Below are positions 11,540 to 50,458 of a stretch of 64,000 nt of DNA, in pieces. The stretch comes from a virus. Position 1 is the first letter of the stretch. Each line of letters begins with the position of its first letter. Below the pieces are notes generated by a model, which worked only from the letters and a program-made list of their open reading frames with translations, was not told the origin of the DNA and did not search any database. Position numbers and translations under genes: made by a program. The stretch is taken from the IMG/VR virus record IMGVR_UViG_3300045988_183163; one strand, written 5' to 3'.

Positions 11540-12802
11540 TCACCTTCTTTCTGTAATATAATTTGTTGCGACTTCTAGTAGCCGCATTTTTTTGTAGGAC
11601 GCGCTATTAGAAACAACAGTACCGTCCAATTTTTTAAGAGCGAAGTATCCAGAAGTTCGTCTGCCTGTGATAAAGCATTCTGAGCCATTATAGGATACTT
11701 TGTCCCAAAGACGATAACCCTTTACGGTGTACGGAGCTTGATTAGCCTTGCGTATACCACCTTTTAGGATAGTTGCTTTGTGCAGCTGTCTGTTATGGTG
11801 GCGTATAGCCTTCGTGTAGTAGCAAGTATCGCAAGGTATGGCCAATGGGTTCTTGCTAATGCAGCGTGCATCGTTGGTGTGACTTTTAGGAATACTATGC
11901 TTCTCACGCAAGTACTTGGTTATGTAGCCATAAGTCCCTTGTACCGGAATCTTCAGCTCTTTAAGCAAGCGTTCCATAAGTGTCTTACGCATAACCCCCA
12001 TAAAAGCTGCATCTTTGAGAGACCTGCCACGTTTTTTGCCGTCAAGTGTTACTTTTCCAGCGTGTAGAGCTTTATGGCAAGCTGTGCATAGCGTGATAAG
12101 GTTGTTTGGCGCATTGCCACCTGTTCTACGGGTCTCGATATGATGCACATGCAGCTTTACAGCTTTTGTTTTTGTTGGATGCGCACCGCAGCATTGGCAC
12201 GTATAATTGTCACGCTTTAACACATACTGGCGTACATTGTACTCATCGTACATTTCACCAAGCTGATAGTCTGTGCCTACCGGCAGAGGTTTACCTTCCA
12301 GCATTGCTTTTAGACGTTGTGTGTCAAACTCTGCTGTTTCTACTCTGACGAACGTAACAGGCAAAATACGACATACTCGCTTGATAAGCGTAATGTGTTC
12401 TTGAATCTTGACCTCCACTGATGGCGCTAACCAGCCCTTATGCTTGCTATGCACTCTGTTGTTGAAACGCGGCGCACGGTAACGGGTTTTGCGGTTTCGC
12501 CTGCTGCGTCTGAAAGCACGGCGTGCAGAAAGCAAATCAACCACATCATTGCGTGGAGTTGCCTCTTCGCAATAGAGTTCGTACTTTTCAGTGGCAGCAG
12601 ATATGCCAATATGTTTGCTGCCTGCATCTACGCCCAAAGTAATAGGTTGTTTGTATCCTGTACTTCCATACAGGAGCTTGATTGTAAACGGTGTGCGTTT
12701 TACAACGCATGCTTTCTTCTGCTTTAACAATAAGCGAGCCTTGCGTGGAGAGCACGGCATCAAAGGTTCGCCGTGTTTGTTAAGCACATACACATATTGC
12801 AT
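11540..12802 (-). CDS. iscB: IscB, OMEGA RNA-guided nuclease (PLMP, split RuvC, HNH domains)
   Basis: PLMP motif HGEPLMPCSPRKARLL; RuvC-I LGVDAGSKHIG; Arg-rich bridge helix RRAFRRSRRNRKTRYR; RuvC-II VRVETAEFD; HNH CQCCG...HHIE...NLITLCTACH; RuvC-III SHTNDARC. 420 aa; RBS AAGGAG. Confidence 0.8.
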   Translation of the reverse strand: MQYVYVLNKHGEPLMPCSPRKARLLLKQKKACVVKRTPFTIKLLYGSTGYKQPITLGVDAGSKHIGISAATEKYELYCEEATPRNDVVDLLSARRAFRRSRRNRKTRYRAPRFNNRVHSKHKGWLAPSVEVKIQEHITLIKRVCRILPVTFVRVETAEFDTQRLKAMLEGKPLPVGTDYQLGEMYDEYNVRQYVLKRDNYTCQCCGAHPTKTKAVKLHVHHIETRRTGGNAPNNLITLCTACHKALHAGKVTLDGKKRGRSLKDAAFMGVMRKTLMERLLKELKIPVQGTYGYITKYLREKHSIPKSHTNDARCISKNPLAIPCDTCYYTKAIRHHNRQLHKATILKGGIRKANQAPYTVKGYRLWDKVSYNGSECFITGRRTSGYFALKKLDGTVVSNSASYKKMRLLEVATNYITERR

Positions 12803-13091
12803 GATACCATGCTCCTTTCTATTTGTGTGACAGCTAATGATAAGCTGTCCTCTCCTCCGAAGAGGAGTTACTTCCGAAGAAGCTAATCCTTCCCCAAAGT
12901 TATAAGCGGTTTAATGCAGCCACACCTGTTGTCTTTACCTCAGATTTCTTTGATGTGTTGCCTTAGAGCGTGCAGTTAGGATTAACGCCGCACGGTAACT
13001 ATCTATTCGCTTATAACGGAGTGCTCGAAGCACTTAGGGTAGTCAACATATCCTTTCGGACATTTCTAAAGCGTAGACTCGCTGATGCAAG
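12803..13091 (-). ncRNA. candidate omega-RNA of IscB (located 5' of iscB up to the LE hairpin)
   Basis: 290 nt with no ORF between the LE hairpin and the iscB start. It contains several GC-rich stems (for example GGAAGTAACTCCTCTTCGGAGGAG). The position matches the known IscB omega-RNA layout. Confidence 0.4.
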
Positions 13092-13111
13092 CCCGCGACT
13101 TTAGTCGTGGG

Positions 13112-13597
13112 TTATTGACGGGAATCAGCTTTCCTGAAATCAGAAAGTTGATTCTCAGTGGAACACTGCACGAAAGGAATTCCCGTGCGCGAATTCACAA
13201 AAACGTCTGTGGTAGCAAACGCATTGCCAAAACTCATGTCACAGAAAACGACGTGAGAACTTTCGTCACCAGATGCACGGGGCGCAAAGCTGGTACATGC
13301 AAACCAATCCAATTCATCCTGCCCCTGTTCATCATAAAGATAAATGACGGGAGCCGGAATGTTGGGCGTCGGCATAGCCAGTGAGCCAACCTGCATTTCA
13401 TTGACACAGAGGTCAATGGGCGGGTTCCCGTTCTGATAATCCCATTTGGGGTATGACTGAGCCCTGATGGTGGTGTCGCCATCATCTACCTCGATGCCAA
13501 GAGCAGCGATATCGAATGGAATACCGAGCTTTTCCTTGATTTCTTCCGGGGTGAAAGTTAGGAGCTTACCGTGTTCGCCTTGGATGTAGAGTCTCAT
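13112..13597 (-). CDS. hypothetical protein
   Basis: 161-aa ORF. Confidence 0.5.
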   Translation of the reverse strand: MRLYIQGEHGKLLTFTPEEIKEKLGIPFDIAALGIEVDDGDTTIRAQSYPKWDYQNGNPPIDLCVNEMQVGSLAMPTPNIPAPVIYLYDEQGQDELDWFACTSFAPRASGDESSHVVFCDMSFGNAFATTDVFVNSRTGIPFVQCSTENQLSDFRKADSRQ

Positions 13598-23831: not shown

Positions 23832-24203
23832 ATGGACGCGACAATGCAGACGGTTCTCCGGCTCCATGAGCAAGGTATACCTAGAAGAACCATTGCCAAA
23901 CGTGCAGGCATCTCATTGCAGAAAGTGCGCAAAATACTGATTACGGCCGGGGCCTGGTCAGATGAAACATCAGAAAAAATCGGGAAGCTGCGTGCGAACG
24001 GTATGTCAGTTCCTGAAATTGCAGAAGAATTGGGTGTAAAAACCAATACTGTTTGGAGCTATTTGCCATACAGCAAAGGCATGTATAATCAAGAATATCC
24101 GACCATTAACGCCATTCGAGTCCGAAATTCGAAGCGAAAAGCAAAAGAAAAAGCCCTCACCTGCACGGATACCGCACAGAATGAGGGCAGTGGCGCTTGC
24201 TGA
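23832..24203 (+). CDS. helix-turn-helix DNA-binding protein (two HTH-like segments)
   Basis: IAKRAGISLQKVRKIL and MSVPEIAEELGVKTNTVWSYL. It is the only plus-strand gene in the first 50 kb. Confidence 0.45.
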   Translation: MDATMQTVLRLHEQGIPRRTIAKRAGISLQKVRKILITAGAWSDETSEKIGKLRANGMSVPEIAEELGVKTNTVWSYLPYSKGMYNQEYPTINAIRVRNSKRKAKEKALTCTDTAQNEGSGAC

Positions 24204-24278
24204 AGGATTCGAACCTTCGGACAGTCTCCCATCGTCGGTTTTCTGGACCGATTTCATCAACCACTCGAACAAGCAAGC
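24191..24278 (-). tRNA. type-II tRNA, Ser-like, with non-canonical anticodon loop CCAGAAA (C33; anticodon reads AGA)
   Basis: Acceptor GCUUGCU/AGCAAGC, G73, CCA encoded, T arm GAAGG-UUCGAAU-CCUUC, long variable arm, anticodon stem UCGGU/ACCGA. Confidence 0.5.
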
Positions 24279-24282
24279 AGAT

Positions 24283-24371
24283 GGCGCAGAGGGTGAGATT
24301 CGAACTCACATGCCGCGATTTCCGCGACGGCAGCTTAGCAAGCTGCTGCCCTACCGTTAGGCGACCTCTGC
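24283..24371 (-). tRNA. tRNA-Ser(GCU)
   Basis: Acceptor GCAGAGG, D stem 3 bp, anticodon arm GCAGC-UUGCUAA-GCUGC, long variable arm, T arm GUGAG-UUCGAAU-CUCAC, G73, CCA. Confidence 0.75.
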
Positions 24372-24403
24372 ATAATGCACCTTTTAACGTAGGTGCGACG
24401 TAG

Positions 24404-24478
24404 TGACCCCTGGCAGACTCGAACTGCCGACTTCAGCTTGAGAGGCTGGCGACTTGGACCAACTTGTCGAAGGGGCCT
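24404..24478 (-). tRNA. tRNA-Glu(CUC)
   Basis: Overall E. coli tRNA-Glu-like architecture; anticodon loop CUCUCAA; T arm GGCAG-UUCGAGU-CUGCC; A73; no CCA encoded. Confidence 0.65.
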
Positions 24479-24481
24479 TAT

Positions 24482-24565
24482 GGTGTGCCGGGCTGGATTC
24501 GAACCAGCGAACCGAAACGGAGCGGTTTTACAGACCGCCTGCTTTAACCTCTTGCATACCGACAC
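24482..24565 (-). tRNA. tRNA-Tyr(GUA)
   Basis: Type II; anticodon arm GCGGU-CUGUAAA-ACCGC; long variable arm; T arm GCUGG-UUCGAAU-CCAGC; A73; CCA. Confidence 0.75.
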
Positions 24566-24568
24566 ATA

Positions 24569-24644
24569 TGGTGCTCCCGGCCGGAATCGAACCAGCGACA
24601 CGCGGTTCTTCAGACCGCTGCTCTACCAACTGAGCTACAGAAGC
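24569..24644 (-). tRNA. tRNA-Phe(GAA)
   Basis: D arm GCUC-AGUUGGUAG-AGC; anticodon arm GCGGU-CUGAAGA-ACCGC; T loop UUCGAUU; A73; CCA. Confidence 0.8.
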
Positions 24645-24645
24645 A

Positions 24646-24725
24646 TGGTGACCCGTGTGGGTTTCGAACCCACAATAACCTCCGCCGTGAAAGGGCGGCA
24701 ACTCTACCAATTCGTCCAACGGGCC
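24646..24725 (-). tRNA. tRNA-Glu(UUC)
   Basis: Anticodon arm CCGCC-CUUUCAC-GGCGG, the same as E. coli tRNA-Glu; T arm GUGGG-UUCGAAA-CCCAC; G73; CCA. Confidence 0.65.
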
Positions 24726-24754
24726 ATATATAGCCGCAATCCTGCGGCGAGGGT

Positions 24755-24976
24755 TTATGCGATGACAAGGATGTCATCTATCTTGGTATCCAGCATCGCT
24801 GCCAATATCACAAGGTTGTCGATGGTGGGGAGCGCTGTTCCAGCTTGCCATTTGGCAACTGCCTGCGTGGATACGCCGAGTGTATCTGCCACATCTTTCA
24901 CCTTGATACCTGCTGCCTTTCGCAGTGTCTTAATGTTGGCACCAGTTTTCTGAATATCAATAGTAGGAACGTTCAT
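24755..24976 (-). CDS. XRE-family helix-turn-helix transcriptional regulator (Cro/CI-type)
   Basis: 73 aa; IKTLRKAAGIKVKDVADTLGVSTQAVAKWQAG matches the HTH_3 pattern. Confidence 0.7.
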   Translation of the reverse strand: MNVPTIDIQKTGANIKTLRKAAGIKVKDVADTLGVSTQAVAKWQAGTALPTIDNLVILAAMLDTKIDDILVIA

Positions 24977-25344
24977 TTTTTCTTGCTGCCTTTCTGTATT
25001 GCAGGCAACAAAAAAGCTGCCTGCCGAAATCTCGACAAGCAGCTATGACATGCAGTTATCGCTTAGAAGACGCACCGCATCTGTACATGGTCTGTTTTTG
25101 CCTGTCGAGGAGTATGAGAAATAAAACTGCGTTCATAAGAGCTGAACTCAGATTCATAACTATACTCATACGACATTACATTAACAGTGTTGCACAGCAT
25201 TTTGGGGTATCTCCTTTCGTTTCGTTCTGATATTATTATAGCATGTTTTTGCACATTTGCAATCAACTTGTGGTTTAGTTTTTTGGTCTGTATACTCTCC
25301 AAAACAAAAAGCCGCCTCTTATGTGAGGACGGCTTTTCTTATTG

Positions 25345-25420
25345 TGGCAGGGGTAACACGACTCGAACATGCAACACGCGGTTTTGGAGACCGCTGCTCT
25401 ACCACTTGAGCTACACCCCT
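25345..25420 (-). tRNA. tRNA-Trp(CCA)
   Basis: Anticodon arm GCGGU-CUCCAAA-ACCGC; D arm GCUC-AAGUGGUAG-AGC; G73; CCA. Confidence 0.75.
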
Positions 25421-25427
25421 ATATAGA

Positions 25428-25492
25428 TACTCCAGTTGGGAGTCGAACCCAGAGTAAAACGGGACTTAAAGCCGCCGCGTTTGCCAGTTTCG
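25428..25492 (-). tRNA. aberrant tRNA-like sequence (acceptor, D and T arms fold; no regular anticodon arm; loop region contains UUUAAGU)
   Basis: Acceptor GCUCCAG/CUGGAGU (G1-U72), D arm GCG-AAACUGGCAAA-CGC, T arm CUGGG-UUCGACU-CCCAA, A73. The anticodon region GGCGGCUUUAAGUCCCGUU cannot form a 5-bp stem. Confidence 0.35.
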
Positions 25493-25505
25493 CCACTGGA
25501 GCATA

Positions 25506-25581
25506 TGGCGGGTTGTACAGGGTTTGAACCTGCGGCCCACGGATTAACGGTCCGTTGCTCTACCAGCTGAGCTAACAACCC
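25506..25581 (-). tRNA. tRNA-Asn(GUU) with C33 (loop CCGUUAA)
   Basis: Anticodon arm ACGGA-CCGUUAA-UCCGU (E. coli Asn has CUGUUAA); T arm GCAGG-UUCAAAC-CCUGU; G73; CCA. Confidence 0.65.
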
Positions 25582-25610
25582 ATAAATGGCAGTTGTTGTA
25601 CTGCCGGACA

Positions 25611-25688
25611 TGGTACTCCCCGAGGGATTCGAACCCTCAAAACGGTGCGGTTTGAGCGCACTGTGTCTGCCAATTTCACCAGAGGAGC
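25611..25688 (-). tRNA. type-I tRNA with anticodon CAA (Leu-like decoding, A73, short variable loop)
   Basis: Anticodon arm GUGCG-CUCAAAC-CGCAC; T arm GAGGG-UUCGAAU-CCCUC; acceptor GCUCCUC/GGGGAGU; CCA. Confidence 0.5.
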
Positions 25689-25691
25689 TTA

Positions 25692-25767
25692 TGGCGGGCG
25701 TAGCAGGATTTGAACCTGCGACAAACGGATTAACGGTCCGCCGCTCTGCCTACTGAGCTATACACCC
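25692..25767 (-). tRNA. tRNA-Asn(GUU) with C33, second copy
   Basis: Anticodon arm GCGGA-CCGUUAA-UCCGU; T arm GCAGG-UUCAAAU-CCUGC; G73; CCA. Confidence 0.65.
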
Positions 25768-25798
25768 ACAAAAGTGGCAGATAATGCTCTGCCGGGCA

Positions 25799-25874
25799 TG
25801 GTGCGCTCGCGGGAAATCGAATCCCGAACACCCCGATTAAAAGTCGGGTACTCTACCGATTGAGTTACGAGCAC
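25799..25874 (-). tRNA. tRNA-Lys(UUU)
   Basis: Anticodon arm CCCGA-CUUUUAA-UCGGG; T arm CGGGA-UUCGAUU-UCCCG; A73; CCA. Confidence 0.75.
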
Positions 25875-26138: not shown

Positions 26139-27080
26139 TTACGCTGCCTGTGTACTGAGTTTTTTGAGCTCAGGATACAGAACTTTAAGCGTGGCAAGTG
26201 TAACTTGGATTCTACGCTCAACATCCGGAACATTAGCCGAAAACTGAGACCTTACCATCGCTGGCAAGGGTTTTAGCAACTCTCTGACAAAGTAGCGAGC
26301 GCCAATATTGTAGCTCGCACTTAGGTCGCAGTTGTATTGTTTGCCGCTTGCAAACGTTGCAAGGGCACGATTGGTTTCATCACGCTCAAGAGCACCACTG
26401 CCATCAAAGGCGAGTTTGCTTGTGCCCCAAGCGCAGATACGCGAAATCCGGATACCACAGCGGTGTGCCTTCTGTGTCACATAATCCTGTATGGAATTAC
26501 GTTTCCACATTGTCAGCTTTTGTGCTTTACTGCCGCCGTGCTTTTTGCCTGTAAATGACAAATGTTCAAAAACAATCACATCTACAGAATAAAGCACAGC
26601 AAATTCAGTAATCGCAGCAGCAACCTTTTTCGCTATATCGTTATTCAAGGCTTTGGCGTAACGCCACATAGCTGCGGCGCTGTTGGAACCGTGCTCCCTT
26701 TGCTTACGCTTGATACGGTTAAGCACATGATACAGATGGTCTTTTTCACTCGGAAAATTGATAAATTTTCTTGCAAGGACAGTTCCATCGGCAGTCATGA
26801 TGCTGCACACGGCGTCAGTATTGAGACCAAGGTCTACAGCGCAGATACGCCTGTCTTGAATTTCAGTTTCAGAGAGTTCTACCTTCTCCACGAAAGCGAA
26901 GCGGAGAAAATATTTTCCGTACTTCTTTTCGAGGGAGGGAGCGCTCTTTTCGCAATGTGACCAGTATTTCGTGATGTATTTGACATCGGTGGCACGCATT
27001 GCAATAGGAATCCAAACCCAGTCATTGTTTTTATACAGCTTCAGATAGCACTGGTTTGGTTTGTTGCTTTCCTCATACAT
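26139..27080 (-). pseudogene. tnpB: TnpB-like (RuvC-I ICAVDLGLN, RuvC-II VIVFEHL, RuvC-III NCDLSASYNIGARY), lacking about 100 N-terminal residues and the CxxC...CxxC zinc finger
   Basis: 313-aa ORF. A 400-nt gap to tnpA has no ORF of 60 aa or more, while the frame stays open upstream of the first ATG. The zinc-finger cysteines are replaced (CAWGTSKLAFDGS). Confidence 0.5.
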
Positions 27081-27488
27081 AACGGTCTTATAAAAAGCCG
27101 GGAAGCAAAATCTATCGCATTGAAGTTTTGGCTCCCTGTCAACCTTGCCGTTTGCTTCCCAGTTCTTATGGCTACTGTAGTAGCTGCTTACAGAGCCGAG
27201 TGCTGCTTGAATAGCCGCTCTGCGCAGGTAACTAGGGAACTTATAAAACTTGGCATCGAAATCATATTTAGCAGTGCTGTATTTTGTAGTATGAATTAAC
27301 TTCTCGGCAAAACTCTTTCGAGATTTGGCACCCTCTACTTTTTGAATAGAATCCCATTCTTTGTTAAATCAACCAATCAAGAAAGAAACGGCTTCGCGAT
27401 AAATCTTTATAGTATTGTCGAACATTTTCTGCTTTTTGATTTCCACAGCATAGCTGGAAGTGATTTTCACTGCGAAGCCCCCCTTTCA

Positions 27489-27869
27489 TCAGTTTCTTAT
27501 TTTTTGAGATGCAATGTATTCTTGTACTTGTTTGCGCGTGTTATCACTGACGGTTGCAATAAAGTAGCTTGGGTTCCAAAGATGCCCGCCCCAAAGTTGC
27601 TTCTTCAAGTCCGGATTGGCGATAAAAATAGCTCTTGCACTGTTGCCTTTAAGCACTTTTATCATATCCGGGATAAAATGCTGCGGTGAACACTCCACCA
27701 ACAGGTGAATATGGTCAGGCATGCATTCCATTTCTACAATATTGATTTTTATGGTTTCGGCGGTCTGCTGCAGAGACTCTTTTAGCGATTGTTCCGTTTC
27801 GTTTGTCAAAGCCTGATGCCTTACCGTCTGGCGAATCCTCGAATATACATTATGTATAATAGCATACAC
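27489..27869 (-). CDS. tnpA: IS200/IS605 family Y1 (HuH) transposase TnpA
   Basis: 126 aa; HuH motif MPDHIHLLVE; C-terminal region LKGNSARAIF...GHLWNPSYFIATV with the catalytic Tyr region. Confidence 0.7.
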   Translation of the reverse strand: MYAIIHNVYSRIRQTVRHQALTNETEQSLKESLQQTAETIKINIVEMECMPDHIHLLVECSPQHFIPDMIKVLKGNSARAIFIANPDLKKQLWGGHLWNPSYFIATVSDNTRKQVQEYIASQKIRN

Positions 27870-28486
27870 TTTAATAAGCCTGGCTGGAATTCACTCCAGC
27901 GGCATTAGAGTGACCTGATTCTGATTTTCTGCATCAAAAAAGCACCCATCAGGCGTTGTGCGTCTGACAGGTGCTCATATCGTGCAGAGTATGGAAAACA
28001 ACCGATACTTGGATGATTTTATTCAACCATCACTGCACTATGATTTGCACAAACAGACAACACAAAACAGCTGAAGAGATTCCAATTGCTCCACAGCTTT
28101 TGCAATTTATTCTGTTTGTTCATCATAGCAGCAAACATCGTGCAGTTTTCCTTTCATCAAATTCAGCGTCTTAATTATACAATATGTAAAAGCCAAAGTC
28201 AAGGCTTTTCGTAAAAATAATGGCAGGCCCGTGCTCATTGTTCGACCGGTCTCCAAGCAGCAATCCGCGCTATTGCATTCGAGAACGGTATGTCCTCACA
28301 CGAACACAACTCGCTTAAAGCCTTAGCCATCCTGGACTCATAGTCAGCCAAAGCCAGGTCGATGGGCACCGTGATTGCAGCAGAGTCATCTGGCGTTTCC
28401 AGAACGGGAGTCCTGGTATTTTCACCTGGCATTCCCTCTTGACACCACTCACAAAAACAAAAAGCCGGGAAACCCCGGCAAAAATT

Positions 28487-28575
28487 TGGCGGTCAGAGTG
28501 GGATTCGAACCCACGGACGTTTTTGGCGTCGCTGGTTTTCAAGACCAGTTCCTTAAACCACTCGGACATCTGACC
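28487..28575 (-). tRNA. tRNA-Ser(UGA)
   Basis: Type II; anticodon arm CUGGU-CUUGAAA-ACCAG; T arm GUGGG-UUCGAAU-CCCAC; G73; CCA. Confidence 0.8.
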
Positions 28576-28658
28576 ACAAAAGGATGGGGCGGGACCGAAA
28601 TCCCGCCCCATAGCAAGGAGAAAAAACTATCGATTACCGTTAGTTAGAGGATGGCAAA

Positions 28659-29792
28659 TTAGTGGATGCCCAGGGAAGCGGCATAAGCAGCTTCACGAGC
28701 GGCAACCTGTGCCTGCAGAGCAGCGATGGAAGCGGCATAAGCGGCTTCACGCTTTTCAGCAGCAGCCTGAGCTTCAGAGGTAGAAGCGTACTGGGGCTCG
28801 TTGCCAGCCAGAGTACCAGCATAGCCCTTGACGCCATCAGCGCCCTTAACAGTCAGGACTTCATGACCACAATGGTCACAGACGTAAACGTTACCCTTGC
28901 GGGTCCAGTTGTGATAGCCACAGCTGGTACAGACGGTGTACTCATTGCCCCAGGTGCCATTGGCAATAGCGGCGGCAATTTCACCGTGCTCAGAGACTTC
29001 AACGTTCTTGCGAGGAGCGGTCGGAGTAGTGGTGGTAGTACCGTTGCCCTTGTTGGAGCCGGTAGAAGTGTTGTCCTTACCGGTGTTGTCCTTATCGGGG
29101 GCCACTACGTCGCCCTTGTCATCGGGAGTGGTGGTGCCGTTGTCACCGGTATTGTCACCAGTGTTGTCGTCCTTATCGTCGGGTTTGGTAACATCACCCT
29201 TGTCATCGCCCTTGTTGTCATCCTTGCCGTCGTCGGGAGTGGATGCAGAAGTGGCTTTCAGGGTCAGGACGTTGTCGTGGATGTCGTCGCCCAGGTAGTA
29301 GAACAGGCGGTCATGGTTCAGGCTCTTGCTGGATGCGGTGTAAGTATCACCGGAATCCGTGGTCCAGGCTTCAACACTCTGACCATCAACACTGCCCGGG
29401 AAAGTGGCGGTGTCAGTCTCGGTCAGCACCGTGTTGCCGTCAATCTGGTAGTTGATGGTGATGGAACGCGGATTGCCCTCAGCCGCATAGCAGGAAGTGA
29501 TGCCGTCAGCGGTGAACCACTGGTCAACTGCATCGTACGGCAGAGTGTCGCCGGGATAGTAGTTGTAGGTATACCCGCCATGGCCTTGCAGGGTAATCCA
29601 GTAGCCGTAGTCATACTGACTTGCCGGGAACGTCATAGAGCCGCCCGGAGCCAGGTCCTGGGAAGAACCATTGCTGAAAGAGAAATGGTAGGTGTCACCG
29701 GTGGCTGCGAACGCTGCGACAGGCAGACAAGTTGCCATCATACCGGCTGCTGCAATCCCTGCGATTGCTTTCATGATTTTCTGATTGCTCAT
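28659..29792 (-). CDS. secreted Asp/Gly/Thr-rich protein with a C-terminal zinc-ribbon
   Basis: Signal peptide MSNQKIMKAIAGIAAAGMMATCLPVAAFA; low-complexity DDKGD repeats; CTSCG...CDHCGHEV zinc-ribbon. The antisense 388-aa ORF is rejected. Confidence 0.55.
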   Translation of the reverse strand: MSNQKIMKAIAGIAAAGMMATCLPVAAFAATGDTYHFSFSNGSSQDLAPGGSMTFPASQYDYGYWITLQGHGGYTYNYYPGDTLPYDAVDQWFTADGITSCYAAEGNPRSITINYQIDGNTVLTETDTATFPGSVDGQSVEAWTTDSGDTYTASSKSLNHDRLFYYLGDDIHDNVLTLKATSASTPDDGKDDNKGDDKGDVTKPDDKDDNTGDNTGDNGTTTPDDKGDVVAPDKDNTGKDNTSTGSNKGNGTTTTTPTAPRKNVEVSEHGEIAAAIANGTWGNEYTVCTSCGYHNWTRKGNVYVCDHCGHEVLTVKGADGVKGYAGTLAGNEPQYASTSEAQAAAEKREAAYAASIAALQAQVAAREAAYAASLGIH

Positions 29793-29894
29793 GCTGTGTA
29801 CTCCTTTGTTCTTTTAATTTTTTTATGATTATCTATCTGCATTTATTCAGATACCGATTTAAGGAGAAATCAGCCGCAGCTTTGCTGCGTTGCC

Positions 29895-29935
29895 CACCAT
29901 CCGCCGCGTGGAGGCTTTCTCATGGATGGTTGACG
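29895..29935 (-). promoter_or_regulatory. structured motif copy 1 (stem CCATCC/GGATGG around AGCCTCCACGCGGC, then TGGGCAAC)
   Basis: One of three copies with compensatory stem changes; it lies in the leader of gene 28659..29792. Confidence 0.4.
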
Positions 29936-30154
29936 AAGCAGATATGTGCTTCGCCAGTGCCGCAACCGTCTTCGCCACTCGACACAATTTCGGTTTGAAT
30001 TTATCCCCGTAAAATCGCATGTCCATGCTGCGCGGAGAGGATAAAATTCTTCGTGGTATGGTTTCGGAGTTCCGCGCCTGATTGGCCGTACTACACGCAA
30101 TGCAGTACAATACCCCAGATACCTTTGGCGGAAGGAAGCGAAAGGGTGTCTGGA

Positions 30155-30230
30155 TGGAGAAGGGAGATGGCCTCGAACCATCGATACCCTGCTTTGCGGC
30201 AGGTGCTTTATCCAGCTAAGCTATCCCTCC
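30155..30230 (-). tRNA. tRNA-Cys(GCA)-like with a 6-nt anticodon loop CGCAAA (U33 absent)
   Basis: Acceptor GGAGGGA/UCCCUUC, U73 (typical of Cys), D arm GCUU-AGCUGGAUAA-AGC, T arm GAUGG-UUCGAGG-CCAUC, anticodon stem CCUGC/GCAGG. Confidence 0.45.
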
Positions 30231-30260
30231 ATGATGGCGGGTCAAGCCCGCCAAATAGCG

Positions 30261-30644
30261 TTACGCAAACTGGAAGTCGCCGTACTGAGTCACGGCGCGT
30301 TCCAGGCGCAGAGGAATGGTTTTTGTGCTCTTCTGAGTGATGTCCTCGCGTGCTACCTGAGCTTCACTCACGCCAGCCGCCTGCAGGACTTCATACAGAT
30401 TGGAAGGACCAGTACCAGCATAACCACAGGTCAAGCCATTAACCTGAAGCGTGAAGCCGTGCAGATGCGGTGCCAAACCGGGAACGAAATCGAGTTCAAC
30501 AATGACCTCGTCGCTCTTGTCGTTTACACGGTTGACAGCGATGGCGCGGATGTTCCGGTTGCCAAACATTTCAATCAGCTTTTTTGCCGCTGCAGCGGTT
30601 TCTATGGTAGTCGTACCTTCAACATTGATAATTGCCTGTTCCAT
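30261..30644 (-). CDS. hypothetical protein
   Basis: Start at MEQAIINVEG (RBS AGGAAGGAG). The longer ORF-track version runs through tRNA-Thr and is rejected. Confidence 0.45.
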   Translation of the reverse strand: MEQAIINVEGTTTIETAAAAKKLIEMFGNRNIRAIAVNRVNDKSDEVIVELDFVPGLAPHLHGFTLQVNGLTCGYAGTGPSNLYEVLQAAGVSEAQVAREDITQKSTKTIPLRLERAVTQYGDFQFA

Positions 30645-30685
30645 AGAATTCATCTCCTTCCTATTATCGCTTAATTTGGTGATGG

Positions 30686-30758
30686 GGCTTGATGGCAGGT
30701 TCGAACTGCCGACCTGCGCGTTACGAATGCGCTGCTCTACCAACTGAGCTAATCGAGC
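30686..30758 (-). tRNA. tRNA-Thr(CGU)
   Basis: Anticodon arm GCGCA-UUCGUAA-UGCGC; D arm GCUC-AGUUGGUAG-AGC; T arm GGCAG-UUCGAAC-CUGCC; no CCA encoded. Confidence 0.7.
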
Positions 30759-31030
30759 ACGATAGGGTGTTTTATGCTGGTCACCCCTTGAGCGAGAAGC
30801 CAACTCGCATCCAGCACCATTCGGCAGCCACGCCGATAGATTCTGTATTGTACCCTCTTCACCGTTTTCCGGTCTTATTCGCGACTAACACCGGGACTTT
30901 CGAATACTTTCAGGCACAGCACCTGTTTGTCTATTATTTTTGAGGCTGTCTCATCGACATTCGGACAGCGGACCACAAGTGGACCATGCTCACCAAGTTT
31001 AACGTCGTGGCGTACGGTGACTGCGACGTG

Positions 31031-31105
31031 TGGAGCAAGTAGCGGGGGTCGAACCCGCGTCTCCGCCTTGGAGGGGCGGAGTATTAGCCGTTATACGATA
31101 CCTGC
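31031..31105 (-). tRNA. tRNA-Gly(UCC) with C33 (loop CCUCCAA)
   Basis: D arm GUAU-AACGGCUA-AUAC as in E. coli Gly(UCC); anticodon arm CCGCC-CCUCCAA-GGCGG; U73; CCA. Confidence 0.6.
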
Positions 31106-31581
31106 ATAAGATTGCGGGTGAACCCTCACTTAGCCCCGCCATGACATCCGTTTAGTAGGTCGTCATCCCCGGATGTCATCTTCACACCACCTGACAATCT
31201 TGCGAACCTCATCGTTGACGATACGCGAGAATCCAAGAAAGCGCTTGGGTGTTGGTCAACTTCAAATTTTGAGCCCTGTCGTTGATTCCCTGTCAAATCG
31301 GGTTAACGGTTGTCGTTGGGCTGTGTGTGAGACTGCAGCGAAACTTACCAGTTGCCGTGCAGCAATCTCGCCTTTACGGCTGTGTCGCGTCTGGATGCGC
31401 CCCGACTTGACGGGGATGCTCGTACGTTTGCATGCTTCTAAGACATTCGTCAGCAGCCGCAAGAGCCGCTGTCCGCCACCCGCCACGAGGAGGCCGCCTT
31501 AATGGGTGGCATGCTGTCCGCCAGATGTTGTGTATAGCATCGTATCATGTGATTTCGATACATCCAACGGATAGCGTCTGG

Positions 31582-31654
31582 AGCTGGAAATCGGACTTGA
31601 ACCGATGACCGACTGATTACAAATCAGTTGCTCTACCAGCTGAGCTAAACCAGC
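31582..31654 (-). tRNA. tRNA-Thr(UGU)
   Basis: Anticodon arm ACUGA-UUUGUAA-UCAGU; T arm AUCGG-UUCAAGU-CCGAU; two U-U mismatches at the base of the acceptor stem. Confidence 0.6.
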
Positions 31655-31696
31655 AAATACAAACATTAGCCAGATGCCCGGAACACGGAAACATCT

Positions 31697-31735
31697 GTTG
31701 CCCACCGTCCGCCGCGTGGAGGCTGTTTGCTTGGA
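31697..31735 (-). promoter_or_regulatory. structured motif copy 2 (stem CCGTCC/GGACGG around AGCCTCCACGCGGC, then TGGGCAAC)
   Basis: Lies immediately 5' of tRNA-Thr(UGU) on the minus strand. Confidence 0.4.
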
Positions 31736-32026
31736 CGGCTGGCGCGGAGTTACCCGCGCCAAATGGGAAATAAAGAGGTATGAAAGGAAGGATATTACTA
31801 TGAAACGGATGATTTTCACGCTTCACCTGTGTCAGCTCAAATGAAGCCATGCGACCAAGATTGGGGAAAGGAAAACCTTGATGTCTCAGGAGCCGTTCCT
31901 CTTCCTGAGAACAATTGTATTATACCATATATGTGGTATCCGGTCAATGAAAAGACACAATATATAGTGTCTAAATTGTAAACAAACATTAAGATACCAC
32001 TATATCTAGTGGTTGGGGCAAGCGCA

Positions 32027-34284: not shown

Positions 34285-35680
34285 ACATTGACACACTCCC
34301 ACGATTAAAATCGTGGGATTCTACTTCAACGAGGCCGCTGGCTGACCCAGTCTTACGCCTCTCGGTAACGGCATGGTGCCCCATCCGTGAGAGTATTTTT
34401 ACGCAGTGTAGCCCGTTTGAGTTAATCCCATACGGCATATATTGATAGCTGCATTGACGTCTCTTTCGTGGTGCGTGCCGCAAGATGGGCAATTCCACTG
34501 CCGCTGCTTGAGTGTGAGCTTCGGGTAGATGTACCCGCAGCGACTGCAGCACTTGCTGGATGGAGCGAAACGGTCAATTTTCACGACCTCCGTGCCACAG
34601 TTGGATGTTGTCCACTCAAGGATTTTGACAAACTCACCAAACGCTATATCATTGATTTTGCGTCCCCAGAGTTTTTGCATCCCTGCAAGATTTAAGTTTT
34701 CAATGCAGATGATAGCGTAATCCGCTATCAGTTGGTAAGCAACCTTAAAGAACCAATCGGTGCGTTGGTTACATATTTTTCGATAGATACGTTCCAACTC
34801 TTTAATTGCTTTCTTACGGTTATTACTTCCCGGCTTACAGCGTGAAATATGTCTTTGCACTCGCTGCAGCTCTTTCAGAGAGGCTTTATACCATTCAGGG
34901 GAATCTATCACGCTGCCGTCATCCAAGTTGAGGAAGTGCTTCAAGCCAAAATCCATCCCGACAGCTTTACCTGCTCGTGGAAGAATTTCATTACATTCCT
35001 CTTGGGTGACGACAAAGAGGTAGACATCACCTAAATTGTCGCGCTTGACGGTTAAGGTTTTCACTTTACCCTTCAAAGGACGAGAATCGAAATAGCGATA
35101 CTTCTTACCATTGATGGTGACGCTGCCTTTGCCGTCAAACTTATAGCCTGCCTGTTTGAGCGTGAAGCTTTTATACATCTCGCGCTTCTTAAATTTCGGC
35201 AGCGACTTCTTGGTAGGATGCGCCTTTTTCTTATTATCAAAATAGGCTTTATAGGCGCGGTCAACGCGCTCCACCACATCCTGAATAGCTTGGCTGCCAA
35301 GATTGTGCCAGTGACCCCACTTGCGGCGCTTGCAGATTTTAGCAATGTACTTTTTCAAATCATTGGCTTTAAGCGTTTTGCCATAGACCAAATAGTACAT
35401 ACGCCGCATAGCAATGCAAAAATTCCAAATCTCGGAGGCTATTTCTATCTGCTGAACAAGATACTTGTTCTTCTTGTTGTTATACAGTTTGTACTTGTAG
35501 GTTTTCATTACAAGACGAATGAGTAGTAGCCTCCTTTTCTTTAGAATCTACTATCTATGGTACGCAATTCGCACGCTTTGACAGCAAAAAATGCTGTCCA
35601 TCTTGCGGATATGCAGCGTGAATTGATTCGTTCTTAACGCCTTTCATCCCACGACTAAAGTCGTGGGTTTTCCCGGCTTG
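34285..35680 (-). mobile_element. IS200/IS605-like element carrying tnpB only
   Basis: LE hairpin CCCACGACTAAAGTCGTGGG at 35648..35667 and RE hairpin CCCACGATTAAAATCGTGGG at 34298..34317 flank an intact tnpB. Confidence 0.65.
34399..35508 (-). CDS. tnpB: TnpB (RuvC-like RNA-guided nuclease, IS605 OrfB family)
   Basis: 369 aa; N-terminus MKTYKYKLYNN; RuvC-I GMDFGLK; RuvC-II IICIENL; zinc finger CSRCG...CPSCG; RuvC-III HERDVNAAINI. Its omega-RNA is expected to overlap the 3' end and RE (about 34290..34520). Confidence 0.8.
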   Translation of the reverse strand: MKTYKYKLYNNKKNKYLVQQIEIASEIWNFCIAMRRMYYLVYGKTLKANDLKKYIAKICKRRKWGHWHNLGSQAIQDVVERVDRAYKAYFDNKKKAHPTKKSLPKFKKREMYKSFTLKQAGYKFDGKGSVTINGKKYRYFDSRPLKGKVKTLTVKRDNLGDVYLFVVTQEECNEILPRAGKAVGMDFGLKHFLNLDDGSVIDSPEWYKASLKELQRVQRHISRCKPGSNNRKKAIKELERIYRKICNQRTDWFFKVAYQLIADYAIICIENLNLAGMQKLWGRKINDIAFGEFVKILEWTTSNCGTEVVKIDRFAPSSKCCSRCGYIYPKLTLKQRQWNCPSCGTHHERDVNAAINICRMGLTQTGYTA

Positions 35681-36907: not shown

Positions 36908-37360
36908 TTATTTGCCCGCTTGCTTTTTCAGCTTATCCCTCGTTTCCATGAGAATGATTCCGAGCCGATTCTGACCTGGGATGTTCTGGCATTTCGGGCA
37001 GTGGCAGTTGCCCCAGTAATTGTCATGCCAGCTGGTCGTGTCTTCCTCAATAGGCTGCGTACCCGTTTCGAGGAGGCGCTGTTTGAGGTCCTCATTCTGC
37101 TCGAATTTGGCCATCACCACGCGGCGCATTACATCGTCCCGGGTTTCGTCCCAGTTGGCAGGAAAAGCCACATGACGGCCAAAATGCTTAGCCGTTGCCG
37201 GAGGCATGTCTGAAAATTGTTTGCGCTCTTCCAGCGGAACCTTGTGGCTCTGAAACGCTGCTTCGGCATTCTTGTAACGAATCCCATCCATCACGAATTC
37301 GCAAGGATAATAGTTACTCATAAACCAGTAGCGAGGGGTATCTTTTCTGAATCGAATCAT
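36908..37360 (-). CDS. NADAR-family protein (YbiA-like, DUF1768)
   Basis: 150 aa; hallmark WGNC...G.N.LG..LM..R segment (YWGNCHCPKCQNIPGQNRLGIILMETR) and the N-terminal MSNYYPCEF...AEAAFQ. Confidence 0.65.
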   Translation of the reverse strand: MIRFRKDTPRYWFMSNYYPCEFVMDGIRYKNAEAAFQSHKVPLEERKQFSDMPPATAKHFGRHVAFPANWDETRDDVMRRVVMAKFEQNEDLKQRLLETGTQPIEEDTTSWHDNYWGNCHCPKCQNIPGQNRLGIILMETRDKLKKQAGK

Positions 37361-45656: not shown

Positions 45657-45711
45657 AGGGCACTTCTTCCTTCCGTCTCAAAGACAATTTGCCGGGACTG
45701 TCTCCCGTTGC

Positions 45712-45745
45712 CCGCTGCTCGCCGCGTGGAGGCTGTCTTTTGGAG
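45712..45745 (-). promoter_or_regulatory. structured motif copy 3 (stem GCTGCTC/GAGCAGC around AGCCTCCACGCGGC, then GGGCAAC)
   Basis: Lies between the VWA gene stop and the next gene. Confidence 0.4.
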
Positions 45746-45775
45746 CAGCTGCGCGGACAAAACCGCGCTTTTGAG

Positions 45776-50139: not shown

Positions 50140-50403
50140 AATTTTTGTTTCTCCATTCGTAAAATAGTAATAAAACTATAAGTCAGGACTTGCGTCCTGT
50201 GGTCCACTTCGCCAATGTTATGCACTGTTTTAGCCTTTCGACATGACGCTCGCACTTCTCCTCCCCTCGGAGATGTTTAACGAAACGCCTGCAGAGCTCA
50301 CCACTTGTGGAGCATGGATAAGGTGCCTATATTATTAGTACACAACGTAGTTTTCCCCACTGCCGGAGCAATGGGCTTAGGCTAACCAACCGGGCTTACG
50401 GGT

Positions 50404-50458
50404 TGCCCCGCAAGCCCCGTCTATAACCGGCGAGCCGGTTTAGGCGGGGTTGTTGACA
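50404..50458. repeat. 55-bp inverted-repeat arm (partner at 63946..64000), including the last 6 codons of the lipoprotein gene and a GNRA-tetraloop hairpin
   Basis: 54/55 identity to the reverse complement of 63946..64000. It contains GGGCUUGCGGG-GCAA-CCCGUAAGCCC. Confidence 0.6.

What the first reader, a model, noticed from the sequence alone, without database searches (positions are those of the whole stretch)
24191..25874. Dense tRNA island in which several tRNAs carry non-canonical anticodon loops
Twelve tRNA or tRNA-like genes lie in 1.7 kb, and five more are scattered over 28.5-31.7 kb. By manual folding, two tRNA-Asn(GUU) copies share the loop CCGUUAA and tRNA-Gly(UCC) has CCUCCAA, so both carry C33 instead of the near-universal U33. 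A type-II Ser-like tRNA has loop CCAGAAA. A Cys(GCA)-like tRNA has a 6-nt loop. A type-I tRNA reads anticodon CAA. Identical aberrant loops in two paralogous Asn genes argue against sequencing error. Phage tRNAs with altered anticodon loops have been reported to escape host anticodon nucleases such as PrrC/RloC-type enzymes and colicin-like enzymes that cut between positions 33-35. This island could be a similar counter-defence toolkit.
Basis: partly seen in the sequence, partly recalled or inferred. Interest (0 to 1): 0.65.

Follow-up and report, generated by a model that had tools for sequence, protein, structure and literature searches.

The report
Phage tRNA island with C33 loops
A large uncultured human-gut phage carries 17 tRNA genes, and five of them have lost the almost universal U at anticodon-loop position 33; the change is real and inherited, recurs in other phages and bacteria, and its benefit is still unproven.

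Summary
ARAGORN and the Rfam tRNA model find 17 tRNA genes, all on the minus strand: 12 in 24191-25874 and 5 in 28487-31654. Both methods place C at position 33 in the two tRNA-Asn(GUU), tRNA-Gly(UCC) and tRNA-Ser(AGA). They place a one-base deletion of position 33 in a tRNA-Cys-like gene. The same loops occur in more than 70 independent gut-virome assemblies of this phage clade, so they are not sequencing errors.

The element is the tRNA island of a large gut phage whose host is probably in Oscillospirales. Its anticodons match A/U-ending codons that the phage overuses.

C33 is not unique to this phage. It occurs in about 2-3% of viral tRNAs, clusters within particular elements, is common in bacterial tRNA arrays, and is the native chromosomal tRNA-Asn of one gut Bacilli lineage. 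An unrelated gut phage cassette acquired C33 in the same three isoacceptors.

The counter-defence reading stays untested. Published U33C mutants are still cut by colicin E5 and gamma-toxin. Loss of queuosine insertion in tRNA-Asn is the only consequence that can be predicted. Selected escape from a U33-reading enzyme (0.42) and near-neutral tolerance (0.35) cannot yet be separated.

The parts
24191..24278 (-). tRNA-Ser(AGA), class II, loop CCAGAAA (C33, A34), G73, encoded CCA
   Evidence: ARAGORN; RF00005 47.6 bits; loop fixed in 68 of 68 relatives
24282..24371 (-). tRNA-Ser(GCU), loop UUGCUAA (U33 here; C33 allele UCGCUAA in 6 relatives)
24403..24477 (-). tRNA-Glu(CUC), loop CUCUCAA, no encoded CCA
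24481..24565 (-). tRNA-Tyr(GUA), class II, canonical loop CUGUAAA
24569..24644 (-). tRNA-Phe(GAA), loop CUGAAGA
24646..24725 (-). tRNA-Glu(UUC), 80 nt, loop CUUUCAC (C33 allele CCUUCAC in the sister clade)
25345..25420 (-). tRNA-Trp(CCA), loop CUCCAAA
25426..25503 (-). Short (78 nt) tRNA with anticodon UAA (Leu-like): class-II-type 3-bp D stem but no long variable arm, C-C mismatch closing the anticodon stem, G37, no encoded CCA
   Evidence: (41.6 bits)
25506..25581 (-). tRNA-Asn(GUU) copy 1, loop CCGUUAA (C33), G73, CCA
   Evidence: RF00005 67.1 bits with C aligned to the U33 column
25611..25688 (-). Short (78 nt) tRNA-Leu(CAA) without long variable arm, A73, CCA
   Evidence: (48.6 bits)
25692..25767 (-). 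tRNA-Asn(GUU) copy 2 (84% identical to copy 1), loop CCGUUAA (C33)
   Evidence: (68.5 bits)
25799..25874 (-). tRNA-Lys(UUU), canonical loop CUUUUAA
28487..28575 (-). tRNA-Ser(UGA), class II, loop CUUGAAA, followed by a terminator-like hairpin at 28464-28479
30155..30230 (-). tRNA-Cys-like: GCA with U73 discriminator and a 6-nt loop CGCAAA (nucleotide 33 missing)
   Evidence: RF00005 46.4 bits with a gap in the U33 column; unchanged in 72 or more relatives
30683..30758 (-). tRNA-Thr(CGU), loop UUCGUAA
31031..31105 (-). tRNA-Gly(UCC), loop CCUCCAA (C33), U73, CCA
   Evidence: RF00005 56 bits with C in the U33 column; 72 of 72 relatives
31579..31654 (-). tRNA-Thr(UGU), loop UUUGUAA (C33 allele in L035, the same contig as L164)
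31659..31739 (-). HDV-like self-cleaving ribozyme, 4 nt upstream of tRNA-Thr(UGU) and directly after a GC hairpin
   Evidence: RF02682 50 bits (gathering score 44); sequence
31919..31947 (-). Promoter-like site TTGACC-17-TATAAT with TG (11 of 12), upstream of the ribozyme/tRNA-Thr unit
   Evidence: consensus match only
31439..31510 (-). Sub-threshold HDV-like ribozyme match, 69 nt downstream of tRNA-Thr(UGU)
   Evidence: RF02682 34.1 bits, below the gathering score
29863..29930 (-). Sub-threshold HDV-like ribozyme match upstream of the 377-aa secreted-protein gene
   Evidence: RF02682 41.7 bits (gathering score 44)
24755..24976 (-). HTH (Cro/CI-type) gene splitting the 12-tRNA block; promoter-like site at 25235-25262 and terminator-like hairpin at 25015-25044 upstream of it
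   Evidence: Pfam HTH_3 2.8e-11
26139..27869 (-). IS200/IS605-type insertion inside the island: Y1 transposase (27489-27869) and a degenerate TnpB-like ORF (26139-27080)

Best explanation
This is the tRNA gene island of an uncultured large human-gut phage. Related contigs reach 222 kb, and the host is probably a Clostridia member of Oscillospirales.

The 17 minus-strand genes sit in several promoter-to-terminator units, some interleaved with HDV-like ribozymes. Fifteen of the 17 encode their own CCA. They supply decoders chiefly for A/U-ending codons and for Asn, which the 49.5% GC phage uses more than the ~60% GC candidate host does.

Five genes carry a heritable change at the U-turn nucleotide: U33 to C in Asn (two copies), Gly(UCC) and Ser(AGA), and loss of nucleotide 33 in a Cys-like tRNA. 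Everything else that defines a working tRNA is intact. I therefore infer that the four C33 tRNAs are charged and still decode.

The mechanism I favour is that C33 is kept because it changes how host proteins that read U33 handle these tRNAs while the ribosome still accepts them. The one consequence predictable from published specificity is that tRNA-Asn can no longer receive queuosine, because bacterial TGT needs U33-G34-U35. Escape from an unidentified anticodon-loop nuclease is the other candidate.

Shown: the genes, the loops, their inheritance, their structural conservation, and their recurrence elsewhere. Inferred: expression, charging, decoding, the host, and any selective benefit.
For: - Real genes and loops.
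- Phage context and inheritance: 79 loci at 90-100% protein identity from many gut samples, with the same loops. No close cultured relative. Phage-type genes in the window.
- Integrity: U8, A14, G18-G19, the T-loop, CCA and isotype-appropriate discriminators (G73 Asn and Ser, U73 Gly and Cys) are all present. Across the collections, C33 tRNAs are as canonical at these sites as U33 tRNAs.
- C33 persists while stems change by compensation, both within the clade and in a sister clade whose Ser(AGA) is 77% identical.
- 126 distinct C33 tRNA-Asn sequences keep 97.5% of stem cells paired, with compensatory changes at 16 of 21 pairs.
- Codon fit: GGA 0.18 vs 0.06, TCT 0.17 vs 0.07, AAT 0.47 vs 0.25; Asn 51 vs 32 per 1000 codons.
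- Hints of selection: enrichment in this island (p = 3e-4). C33 clusters within elements: 37/399 against 8/396, p = 9e-6. A second gut phage cassette, with tRNAs only 61-67% identical, has C33 in Asn (all copies), Gly(UCC) (a subclade) and Ser(AGA) (a nested subclade).
- Only C ever replaces U33, never A or G.
- TGT requirement for UGU: cited in PMC1635277.
Against: - No enzyme has been identified.
- U33C does not protect against colicin E5 (PMC1635277) or gamma-toxin (PMC2275089).
- The queuosine argument cannot explain Gly, Ser or Cys, and the phage's own tRNA-Tyr keeps U33.
- C33 tRNA-Asn is the native chromosomal gene, next to ProRS, in a gut Bacilli lineage with 22 species-level genomes in my sample. 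So C33 needs no phage-specific rationale.
- The 2% background of C33 in viral tRNAs and the U/C polymorphism at position 33 in Ser(GCU), Thr(UGU) and Glu(UUC) within this phage group fit a weakly constrained pyrimidine site equally well.
- The clade is shallow, so the absence of reversion is weak evidence.
- The isoacceptor parallelism is only p ~ 0.05-0.2.
- The host, and therefore the codon comparison, is a proxy.
Confidence: 0.42

Rival explanations
1. Near-neutral tolerance. The tRNAs work, but C33 has no role of its own. U-to-C is the mildest possible change at the U-turn. Accessory tRNAs in phages and tRNA arrays are under weaker purifying selection than housekeeping tRNAs, so C33 drifts to fixation in some lineages.
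For: - C33 is a low-level background in viral tRNAs of many isotypes (8/396; tRNA-Asn 4/118).
- It reaches 16.5% in bacterial tRNA arrays.
- Only the pyrimidine swap is seen.
- Position 33 is polymorphic U/C in three further tRNAs of this phage group.
- C33 tRNA-Asn serves as a normal chromosomal tRNA in some bacteria.
- U33C had no effect on two nucleases tested in the literature (PMC1635277, PMC2275089).
Against: - Four of 17 here against a 2% baseline (p = 3e-4) needs a lineage-specific cause.
- The same three isoacceptors changed in an unrelated cassette.
- No reversion was seen, including in the sister clade.
- Both copies of the heavily used tRNA-Asn carry C33.
Confidence: 0.35
2. Host mimicry. 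The host lineage itself uses C33 in these isoacceptors, and the phage copies simply reflect host tRNA conventions.
For: Whole bacterial lineages do carry C33 tRNA-Asn on the chromosome. C33 clusters by element, which could reflect the host.
Against: The phage Asn tRNAs are at most 76% identical to any bacterial C33 tRNA-Asn I recovered. The lineages with chromosomal C33 tRNA-Asn are Bacilli-type MAGs, Gaiellales and others. The host suggested by protein homology is different: Gemmiger, Negativibacillus or Anaerotruncus, all Oscillospirales. In those bacteria the neighbouring tRNA-Glu keeps U33.
Confidence: 0.08
3. Non-decoding RNAs. Some or all of the position-33 variants no longer translate. 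They are decaying genes, or tRNA-shaped decoys that bind a tRNA-targeting enzyme. This is most plausible for the Cys-like gene with its 6-nt loop.
For: A 6-nt anticodon loop is not expected to decode normally (established tRNA knowledge). Overexpressed viral tRNAs have been suggested to inhibit AriB (PMC12409363).
Against: All other invariant features, the CCA ends and the discriminators are intact. The C33 tRNA-Asn family shows strong compensatory evolution. C33 serves as the chromosomal tRNA-Asn in some bacteria. The Cys-like gene is unchanged in 86 or more copies, but the clade is too shallow to tell constraint from recency.
Confidence: 0.1
4. RNA editing. C33 is converted back to U after transcription by a cytidine deaminase, so the mature tRNAs are canonical.
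For: None found here. C-to-U editing of tRNAs exists in other systems (own knowledge).
Against: No deaminase domain appeared in any of the about 60 ORFs of the window scanned against Pfam and PHROGs. Editing cannot restore the missing base in the Cys-like tRNA.
Confidence: 0.03

Closest known systems
Mycobacteriophage cluster C1 tRNAs with anticodon-loop substitutions proposed to evade VapC-type anticodon nucleases (van den Berg et al. 2023, PMC10264068)
   Same: A phage-encoded tRNA set in which several members depart from the expected anticodon loop, with a proposed role as a nuclease-insensitive backup pool.
   Different: There the substitutions were defined against known host tRNAs and at positions known to affect VapC cleavage. 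Here the host tRNAs are unknown. The changed position is the near-invariant U33, which that paper does not mention. In another phage-host comparison the loop changes fell at positions 32 and 38 (Sf14, PMC12482277).
Phage T5 tRNA-Lys, tRNA-Thr and tRNA-Asn variants that neutralise PARIS (AriB) (PMC11464382, PMC12409363)
   Same: [quoted passage not shown]
   Different: AriB cuts the anticodon stem at 40|41, and T5 escapes through changes at positions 39 and 41. Here the change is at position 33 in the loop, and no PARIS link is known.
Eukaryotic cytoplasmic initiator tRNA-Met, the textbook natural tRNA with C33 (own knowledge; discussed in PMC8887486)
   Same: A functional tRNA with C at the U-turn position.
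   Different: That is an initiator, not an elongator, and it is eukaryotic and unrelated in sequence. Here elongator tRNAs for Asn, Gly and Ser carry C33.
Bacterial tRNA arrays (PMC4758250, PMC5966550, PMC8421152)
   Same: Dense accessory tRNA clusters on mobile DNA. The arrays I recovered in Acidimicrobiaceae, Planctomycetota and Myxococcota MAGs carry C33 in 16.5% of their non-Asn tRNAs.
   Different: This island has 17 genes, below the 20-gene definition, and lies in a phage. I found no published mention of C33 in arrays within the searched library.
Theta / HDV-like ribozymes next to tRNAs in gut phages (Kienbeck et al. 2024, PMC10879173)
   Same: HDV-like ribozymes embedded among the tRNA genes of a gut Caudoviricetes-type phage.
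   Different: The proposed role there is 3'-trailer removal for suppressor tRNAs in recoded phages. Here the best ribozyme lies 4 nt upstream of tRNA-Thr, and no suppressor tRNA is present.

Membership tests
tRNA (Rfam RF00005) | Cloverleaf scoring above the family gathering score (29 bits) | tested here: met
   16 of 17 score 41.6-68.5 bits with default filters. The Cys-like gene scores 46.4 bits with lax filters.
tRNA (Rfam RF00005) | Seven-base anticodon loop with U at position 33 | tested here: not met
   C33 in four genes and a deletion of position 33 in one, by both ARAGORN and the covariance-model alignment. The other 12 genes have U33.
tRNA (Rfam RF00005) | Conserved tertiary nucleotides (U8, A14, G18-G19, GTTCRA T-loop) and stems kept by compensatory change | tested here: met
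   All five position-33 variants pass every check. 126 distinct C33 tRNA-Asn sequences are 97.5% paired, with 16 of 21 pairs showing compensatory changes.
tRNA (Rfam RF00005) | Expression, aminoacylation and use on the ribosome | not testable with these tools
   Needs tRNA sequencing or biochemistry.
Phage tRNA cluster acting by codon supplementation | Located in a phage genome | tested here: met
   79 related IMG/VR contigs. Phage lysozyme, Mor, DNA polymerase, helicase and ligase genes in the window.
Phage tRNA cluster acting by codon supplementation | Anticodons match codons the phage uses more than its host | tested here: inconclusive
   The match holds against Gemmiger-like chromosomal loci used as a proxy host, but the real host is not established.
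Nuclease-evading phage tRNAs (PMC10264068, PMC12409363, PMC11555353) | Anticodon stem-loop differs from the host's cognate tRNA | not tested
   Host tRNA genes could not be obtained: loci L080-L087 and L441-L450 held no tRNAs. The loops do differ from the universal consensus.
Nuclease-evading phage tRNAs (PMC10264068, PMC12409363, PMC11555353) | The substitution lies at a position shown to block a tRNA nuclease | tested here: inconclusive
   Literature check only. U33C leaves colicin E5 and gamma-toxin cleavage unchanged. I found no data for PrrC, RloC, VapC, HEPN or Schlafen enzymes.
Nuclease-evading phage tRNAs (PMC10264068, PMC12409363, PMC11555353) | The host encodes a nuclease that targets these isoacceptors, and the phage tRNA resists it | not testable with these tools
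   Needs the host genome and cleavage assays.
tRNA array unit (at least 20 tRNA genes at 2 or more per kb, PMC4758250) | At least 20 tRNA genes at the stated density | tested here: not met
   17 genes in total; 12 in 1.7 kb meets the density but not the number.
Theta / HDV-like ribozyme-tRNA module (PMC10879173) | HDV-like ribozyme above its Rfam threshold, next to a tRNA | tested here: met
   RF02682 at 50 bits against a gathering score of 44, at 31659-31739, 4 nt from tRNA-Thr(UGU).
Theta / HDV-like ribozyme-tRNA module (PMC10879173) | Ribozyme immediately 3' of the tRNA (trailer removal), associated with a suppressor tRNA | tested here: not met
   The ribozyme is 5' of the tRNA. The only 3' candidate is sub-threshold and 69 nt away. 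There is no suppressor anticodon among the 17 tRNAs.

The most novel reading that the evidence does not exclude
U33-to-C33 is a positively selected, convergent escape substitution that marks accessory tRNAs in phage islands and bacterial tRNA arrays. It lets them evade a widespread class of host enzymes that read U33, either an anticodon-loop nuclease or the queuosine-inserting TGT, while the ribosome still accepts them. On this reading the repeated hits on Asn(GUU), Gly(UCC), Ser(AGA) and Cys in gut phages of different host phyla reveal which tRNAs gut bacteria attack during infection.
Probability: 0.3. Interest if true: 0.75.

Novelty: new variant of a known kind. Interest (0 to 1): 0.55.

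Why it matters
U33 is among the most conserved nucleotides in biology because it makes the anticodon U-turn. This window shows elongator tRNAs that have given it up and are stably inherited. The follow-up shows that this is a recurring feature of mobile tRNA sets and of some bacterial lineages.

If C33 is selected, it gives a simple sequence signature for finding immune-evasive tRNAs, and through them the tRNA-targeting defences of unculturable gut bacteria. It would also separate what the ribosome needs at position 33 from what tRNA-modifying and tRNA-cleaving enzymes need there. If C33 is merely tolerated, that corrects the assumption that U33 is obligatory in bacterial elongator tRNAs, and it matters for tRNA gene annotation and for engineered tRNAs.

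Tried and rejected
- Sequencing or assembly error: rejected. The same loops occur in more than 70 independent assemblies.
- Wrong stem register: rejected. ARAGORN and the Rfam covariance model agree.
- A single horizontally spread C33 tRNA-Asn family: rejected. There are 127 unique sequences in 40-71 clusters, interleaved with U33 sequences.
- Degenerate pseudogenes: rejected for the C33 genes.
- A queuosine-only explanation: rejected as general. The phage tRNA-Tyr keeps U33, and Gly, Ser and Cys are not queuosine tRNAs. In tRNA arrays C33 is not confined to GUN anticodons.
- A phage-encoded enzyme acting on these tRNAs: none found. No deaminase, RNA ligase, TGT/Que enzyme or tRNA repair domain appears in the window. 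The 377-aa gene inside the island encodes a secreted, low-complexity, zinc-ribbon protein.
- Host tRNA retrieval failed.
- A cultured phage with C33 tRNA-Asn: the two checked, Alishewanella Slicko01 and Pseudomonas Phabio, have U33.
- Counting U-to-C against C-to-U events within the clade: not significant given the number of sites available.
- An Rfam run on the short stretch 24150-24290 returned nothing, although the same tRNA scores 47.6 bits in the whole-window run. I treat this as a filter effect.


Full report
**1.

ARAGORN reports 17 tRNA genes in the window, all on the minus strand. Twelve lie in 24191-25874 and five in 28487-31654. The drawn cloverleaves give:
- loop CCGUUAA for both tRNA-Asn(GUU);
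- loop CCUCCAA for tRNA-Gly(UCC);
- loop CCAGAAA for a class-II tRNA-Ser(AGA);
- a 6-nt loop CGCAAA for a tRNA with GCA and the Cys-type discriminator U73;
- two 78-nt Leu-type tRNAs (CAA and UAA) that keep the 3-bp D stem of class-II tRNAs but lack the long variable arm.

The Rfam tRNA model, used here as a stand-in for tRNAscan-SE (which is not among the tools but also runs on Infernal, by my own knowledge), scores all 17 above threshold. Its alignments place C in the U33 column of both Asn and of Gly, and a one-base gap at position 33 in the Cys-like gene.

**2. What carries the island**

- The window encodes NAD-dependent DNA ligase, a helicase, a DNA polymerase, a phage lysozyme, a Mor-type activator, IscB with its HEARO RNA, TnpB/IS200 elements and a NADAR protein.
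- It has no close cultured relative.
- A 377-aa protein encoded inside the island retrieved 79 IMG/VR loci at 90-100% identity. Nearly all are from human-gut data sets, on contigs up to 222 kb. This is an abundant, uncultured, large gut phage.
- More distant homologues of that protein sit in ordinary chromosomal contexts of 'uncultured Gemmiger sp.'.
- The nearest named relatives of its TnpB are from Negativibacillus and Anaerotruncus.
- The host is therefore probably in Oscillospirales. This is an inference.

**3. The loops are inherited**

Across those loci Asn is CCGTTAA in 130 of 134 genes. The four U33 exceptions are different, additional Asn genes. Gly is CCTCCAA in 72 of 72, Ser(AGA) is CCAGAAA in 68 of 68, and the Cys-like loop is CGCAAA in 72.

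Stems vary by compensation while the loops stay fixed. A sister clade whose Ser(AGA) is only 77% identical keeps C33 in Asn and Ser(AGA). It also has C33 in Glu(UUC) in four of five contigs. Within the clade, C33 alleles of Ser(GCU) (six loci) and Thr(UGU) also occur.

**4. The genes look functional**

All five position-33 variants have U8, A14, G18-G19, a GTTCRA T-loop, an encoded CCA and discriminators that fit their isotype. Promoter-like and terminator-like sites frame several minus-strand units.

The repertoire fits codon supplementation. Against Gemmiger-like loci (57-61% GC) the 49.5% GC phage uses more of these codons:

| Codon or residue | Phage | Proxy host |
|---|---|---|
| GGA | 0.18 | 0.06 |
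| TCT | 0.17 | 0.07 |
| AAT | 0.47 | 0.25 |
| Asn per 1000 codons | 51 | 32 |

ACA, ACT, GAA and AAA are also higher in the phage.

**5. C33 is not peculiar to this phage**

Of the first 80 loci examined, 42 were from other phages and other environments. Allowing either pyrimidine at position 33 gave 4 C to 114 U (3.4%). The neighbouring non-Asn tRNAs in that unbiased sample had C33 in 8 of 396 (2%), and never A or G.

C33 clusters within elements. In viral contigs that already have a C33 Asn, 37 of 399 other tRNAs have C33 (Fisher p = 9e-6).

*Bacterial genomes.* The same scan of 185,579 species genomes also hit its limit. Three contexts appeared:
- Large tRNA arrays in Acidimicrobiaceae, Planctomycetota, Myxococcota and Cyanobacteria MAGs, where 16.5% of non-Asn tRNAs have C33.
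- A conserved Asn(C33)-Glu(U33) pair in 22 gut Bacilli-type genomes. It lies beside ProRS and an M24 peptidase, and its acceptor stem shows compensatory variation. This is a native chromosomal tRNA.
- A second gut phage cassette (Gln-Met-Asn-Gly-Ile-Ser-Ser-Arg-Cys-Trp), found among other places in a Collinsella aerofaciens isolate genome. Its tRNAs are only 61-67% identical to those here. Asn is always C33, Gly(UCC) is C33 in a subclade, Ser(AGA) is C33 in a nested subclade, and Cys varies at position 32.

*Diversity.* The 126 distinct C33 tRNA-Asn sequences are 97.5% paired in their stems, with compensatory changes at 16 of 21 pairs. They fall into dozens of clusters interleaved with U33 sequences.

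**6. What this means for mechanism**

The C33 tRNAs are structurally constrained, so they are very probably working tRNAs. C33 can clearly support normal translation of Asn codons in some bacteria.

In favour of selection:
- this island is enriched (4 of 17 against 2%, p = 3e-4);
- C33 clusters by element;
- two unrelated gut cassettes changed the same isoacceptors.

In favour of mere tolerance:
- the 2% background across many isotypes;
- the U/C polymorphisms within this phage group;
- the chromosomal examples;
- the shallow depth of the clade.

On the specific counter-defence idea, the general principle is established (PMC10264068, PMC12409363, PMC11555353). But the only published U33C tests I found show no protection. 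Colicin E5 needs only a pyrimidine before G-U (PMC1635277), and gamma-toxin is unaffected (PMC2275089). In the one phage-host comparison I read, loop changes fell at positions 32 and 38 (PMC12482277).

One consequence can be predicted. E. coli TGT requires U33-G34-U35 (Nakanishi 1994, cited in PMC1635277), so the phage tRNA-Asn should stay unmodified at G34. That cannot explain Gly, Ser or Cys, and the phage's tRNA-Tyr keeps U33.

No deaminase, ligase or other tRNA-directed enzyme is encoded in the window.

**7. Verdict**

This is a real, inherited, non-canonical feature in an otherwise ordinary phage tRNA island. I favour retention because it alters recognition by U33-reading host enzymes (0.42). 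Near-neutral tolerance follows at 0.35, with small weights for host mimicry, non-decoding RNAs (most plausible for the 6-nt-loop Cys-like gene) and RNA editing.

In kind, this is a new variant of a known kind: phage tRNAs with altered anticodon loops, with the alteration at the U-turn base. I found no description of natural C33 elongator tRNAs in phages or arrays in the searched literature.

Noticed in passing
window 31659-31739 (-), 45680-45749 (-); sub-threshold 29863-29930 (-) and 31439-31510 (-): There are HDV-like self-cleaving ribozymes of the F. prausnitzii type (60.4 and 50 bits; two more just under threshold). One sits directly after a GC hairpin and 4 nt upstream of tRNA-Thr(UGU), on the 5' side rather than the 3'-trailer position proposed for theta ribozymes. 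Others lie between protein genes, which suggests general transcript processing.
   Followed up: partly
window 12879-13119 (-) and 50197-50457 (-): There are two HEARO (IscB omega-RNA) matches. The first precedes an IscB-like RRXRR+HNH gene (11540-12802). The second precedes a 547-aa SPFH/flotillin-like gene (48496-50139) with no IscB, an unusual pairing.
   Followed up: no
window 25426-25767 (-): The Asn-Leu(CAA)-Asn-Leu(UAA) block looks like a tandem duplication of an Asn-Leu module (Asn copies 84% identical, Leu copies 69%). Both Leu-type tRNAs keep the class-II D arm but have lost the long variable arm. The UAA one also has a C-C mismatch closing its anticodon stem, G37, and no encoded CCA.
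   Followed up: partly
window 24191-24278 (-); L102, L107, L115, L342, L391, L398 and others: A tRNA-Ser with anticodon AGA (A34, unusual for bacterial systems) occurs in this phage and independently in the second gut phage cassette, with U33 or C33.
   Followed up: partly
L369 6889-7051; also L325-L327, L334, L345, L350, L352, L370, L371 and others (22 loci): A gut Bacilli-type lineage (MAGs labelled Bacilli, Bacillales, Mollicutes, Enterosoma) carries a conserved chromosomal tRNA-Asn(C33)-tRNA-Glu(U33) pair next to ProRS and an M24 peptidase. The acceptor stem shows compensatory variation. This is a native C33 elongator tRNA.
   Followed up: partly
L323, L329, L336, L351, L359, L361, L362, L364, L366, L367 and others: Acidimicrobiaceae MAGs, including closed 4.7-5.6 Mb chromosomes, hold arrays of 20-30 tRNA genes in 8 kb. 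In these, Tyr, Asp, His, Asn, Glu, Leu(CAA), Thr(GGU) and Val(GAC) often have C33. Similar arrays occur in Planctomycetota and Myxococcota MAGs.
   Followed up: partly
window 26139-27869 (-) and 34399-35508 (-): An IS200/IS605 Y1 transposase plus a degenerate TnpB-like ORF is inserted inside the tRNA island. A full TnpB lies 3 kb beyond it. Its nearest named relatives (60-62%) are from Negativibacillus and Anaerotruncus, which I used as a host hint.
   Followed up: partly
window 36908-37360 (-): A NADAR-domain protein (1.1e-26) is encoded here. NADAR enzymes are known to reverse DarT ADP-ribosylation of DNA (own knowledge), so this is a candidate counter-defence gene in the same phage.
   Followed up: no
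window 28659-29792 (-): The gene inside the tRNA island encodes a protein with a signal peptide, a long D/K/T-rich low-complexity linker and a C-terminal zinc ribbon. It has 33-48% identical homologues in Gemmiger chromosomes, is preceded by a near-threshold HDV-like ribozyme, and has no known function.
   Followed up: partly
L007 7726-7876; L033, L048, L060 near 12900-13500: Some clade members carry an extra inserted block with a canonical U33 tRNA-Asn. In L060 the block also holds Val, Lys(CUU) and Met; in L007 the U33 Asn lies beside a tRNA-Met with loop CCCAUAC. C33 and U33 Asn genes therefore coexist in a few genomes.
   Followed up: partly
L392 (Lactonifactor longoviformis DSM 17459) and L125 (IMG/VR): A C33 tRNA-Asn lies beside a tRNA with anticodon UUA (an ochre-suppressor type). 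This suggests a prophage-borne suppressor in an isolate genome.
   Followed up: no
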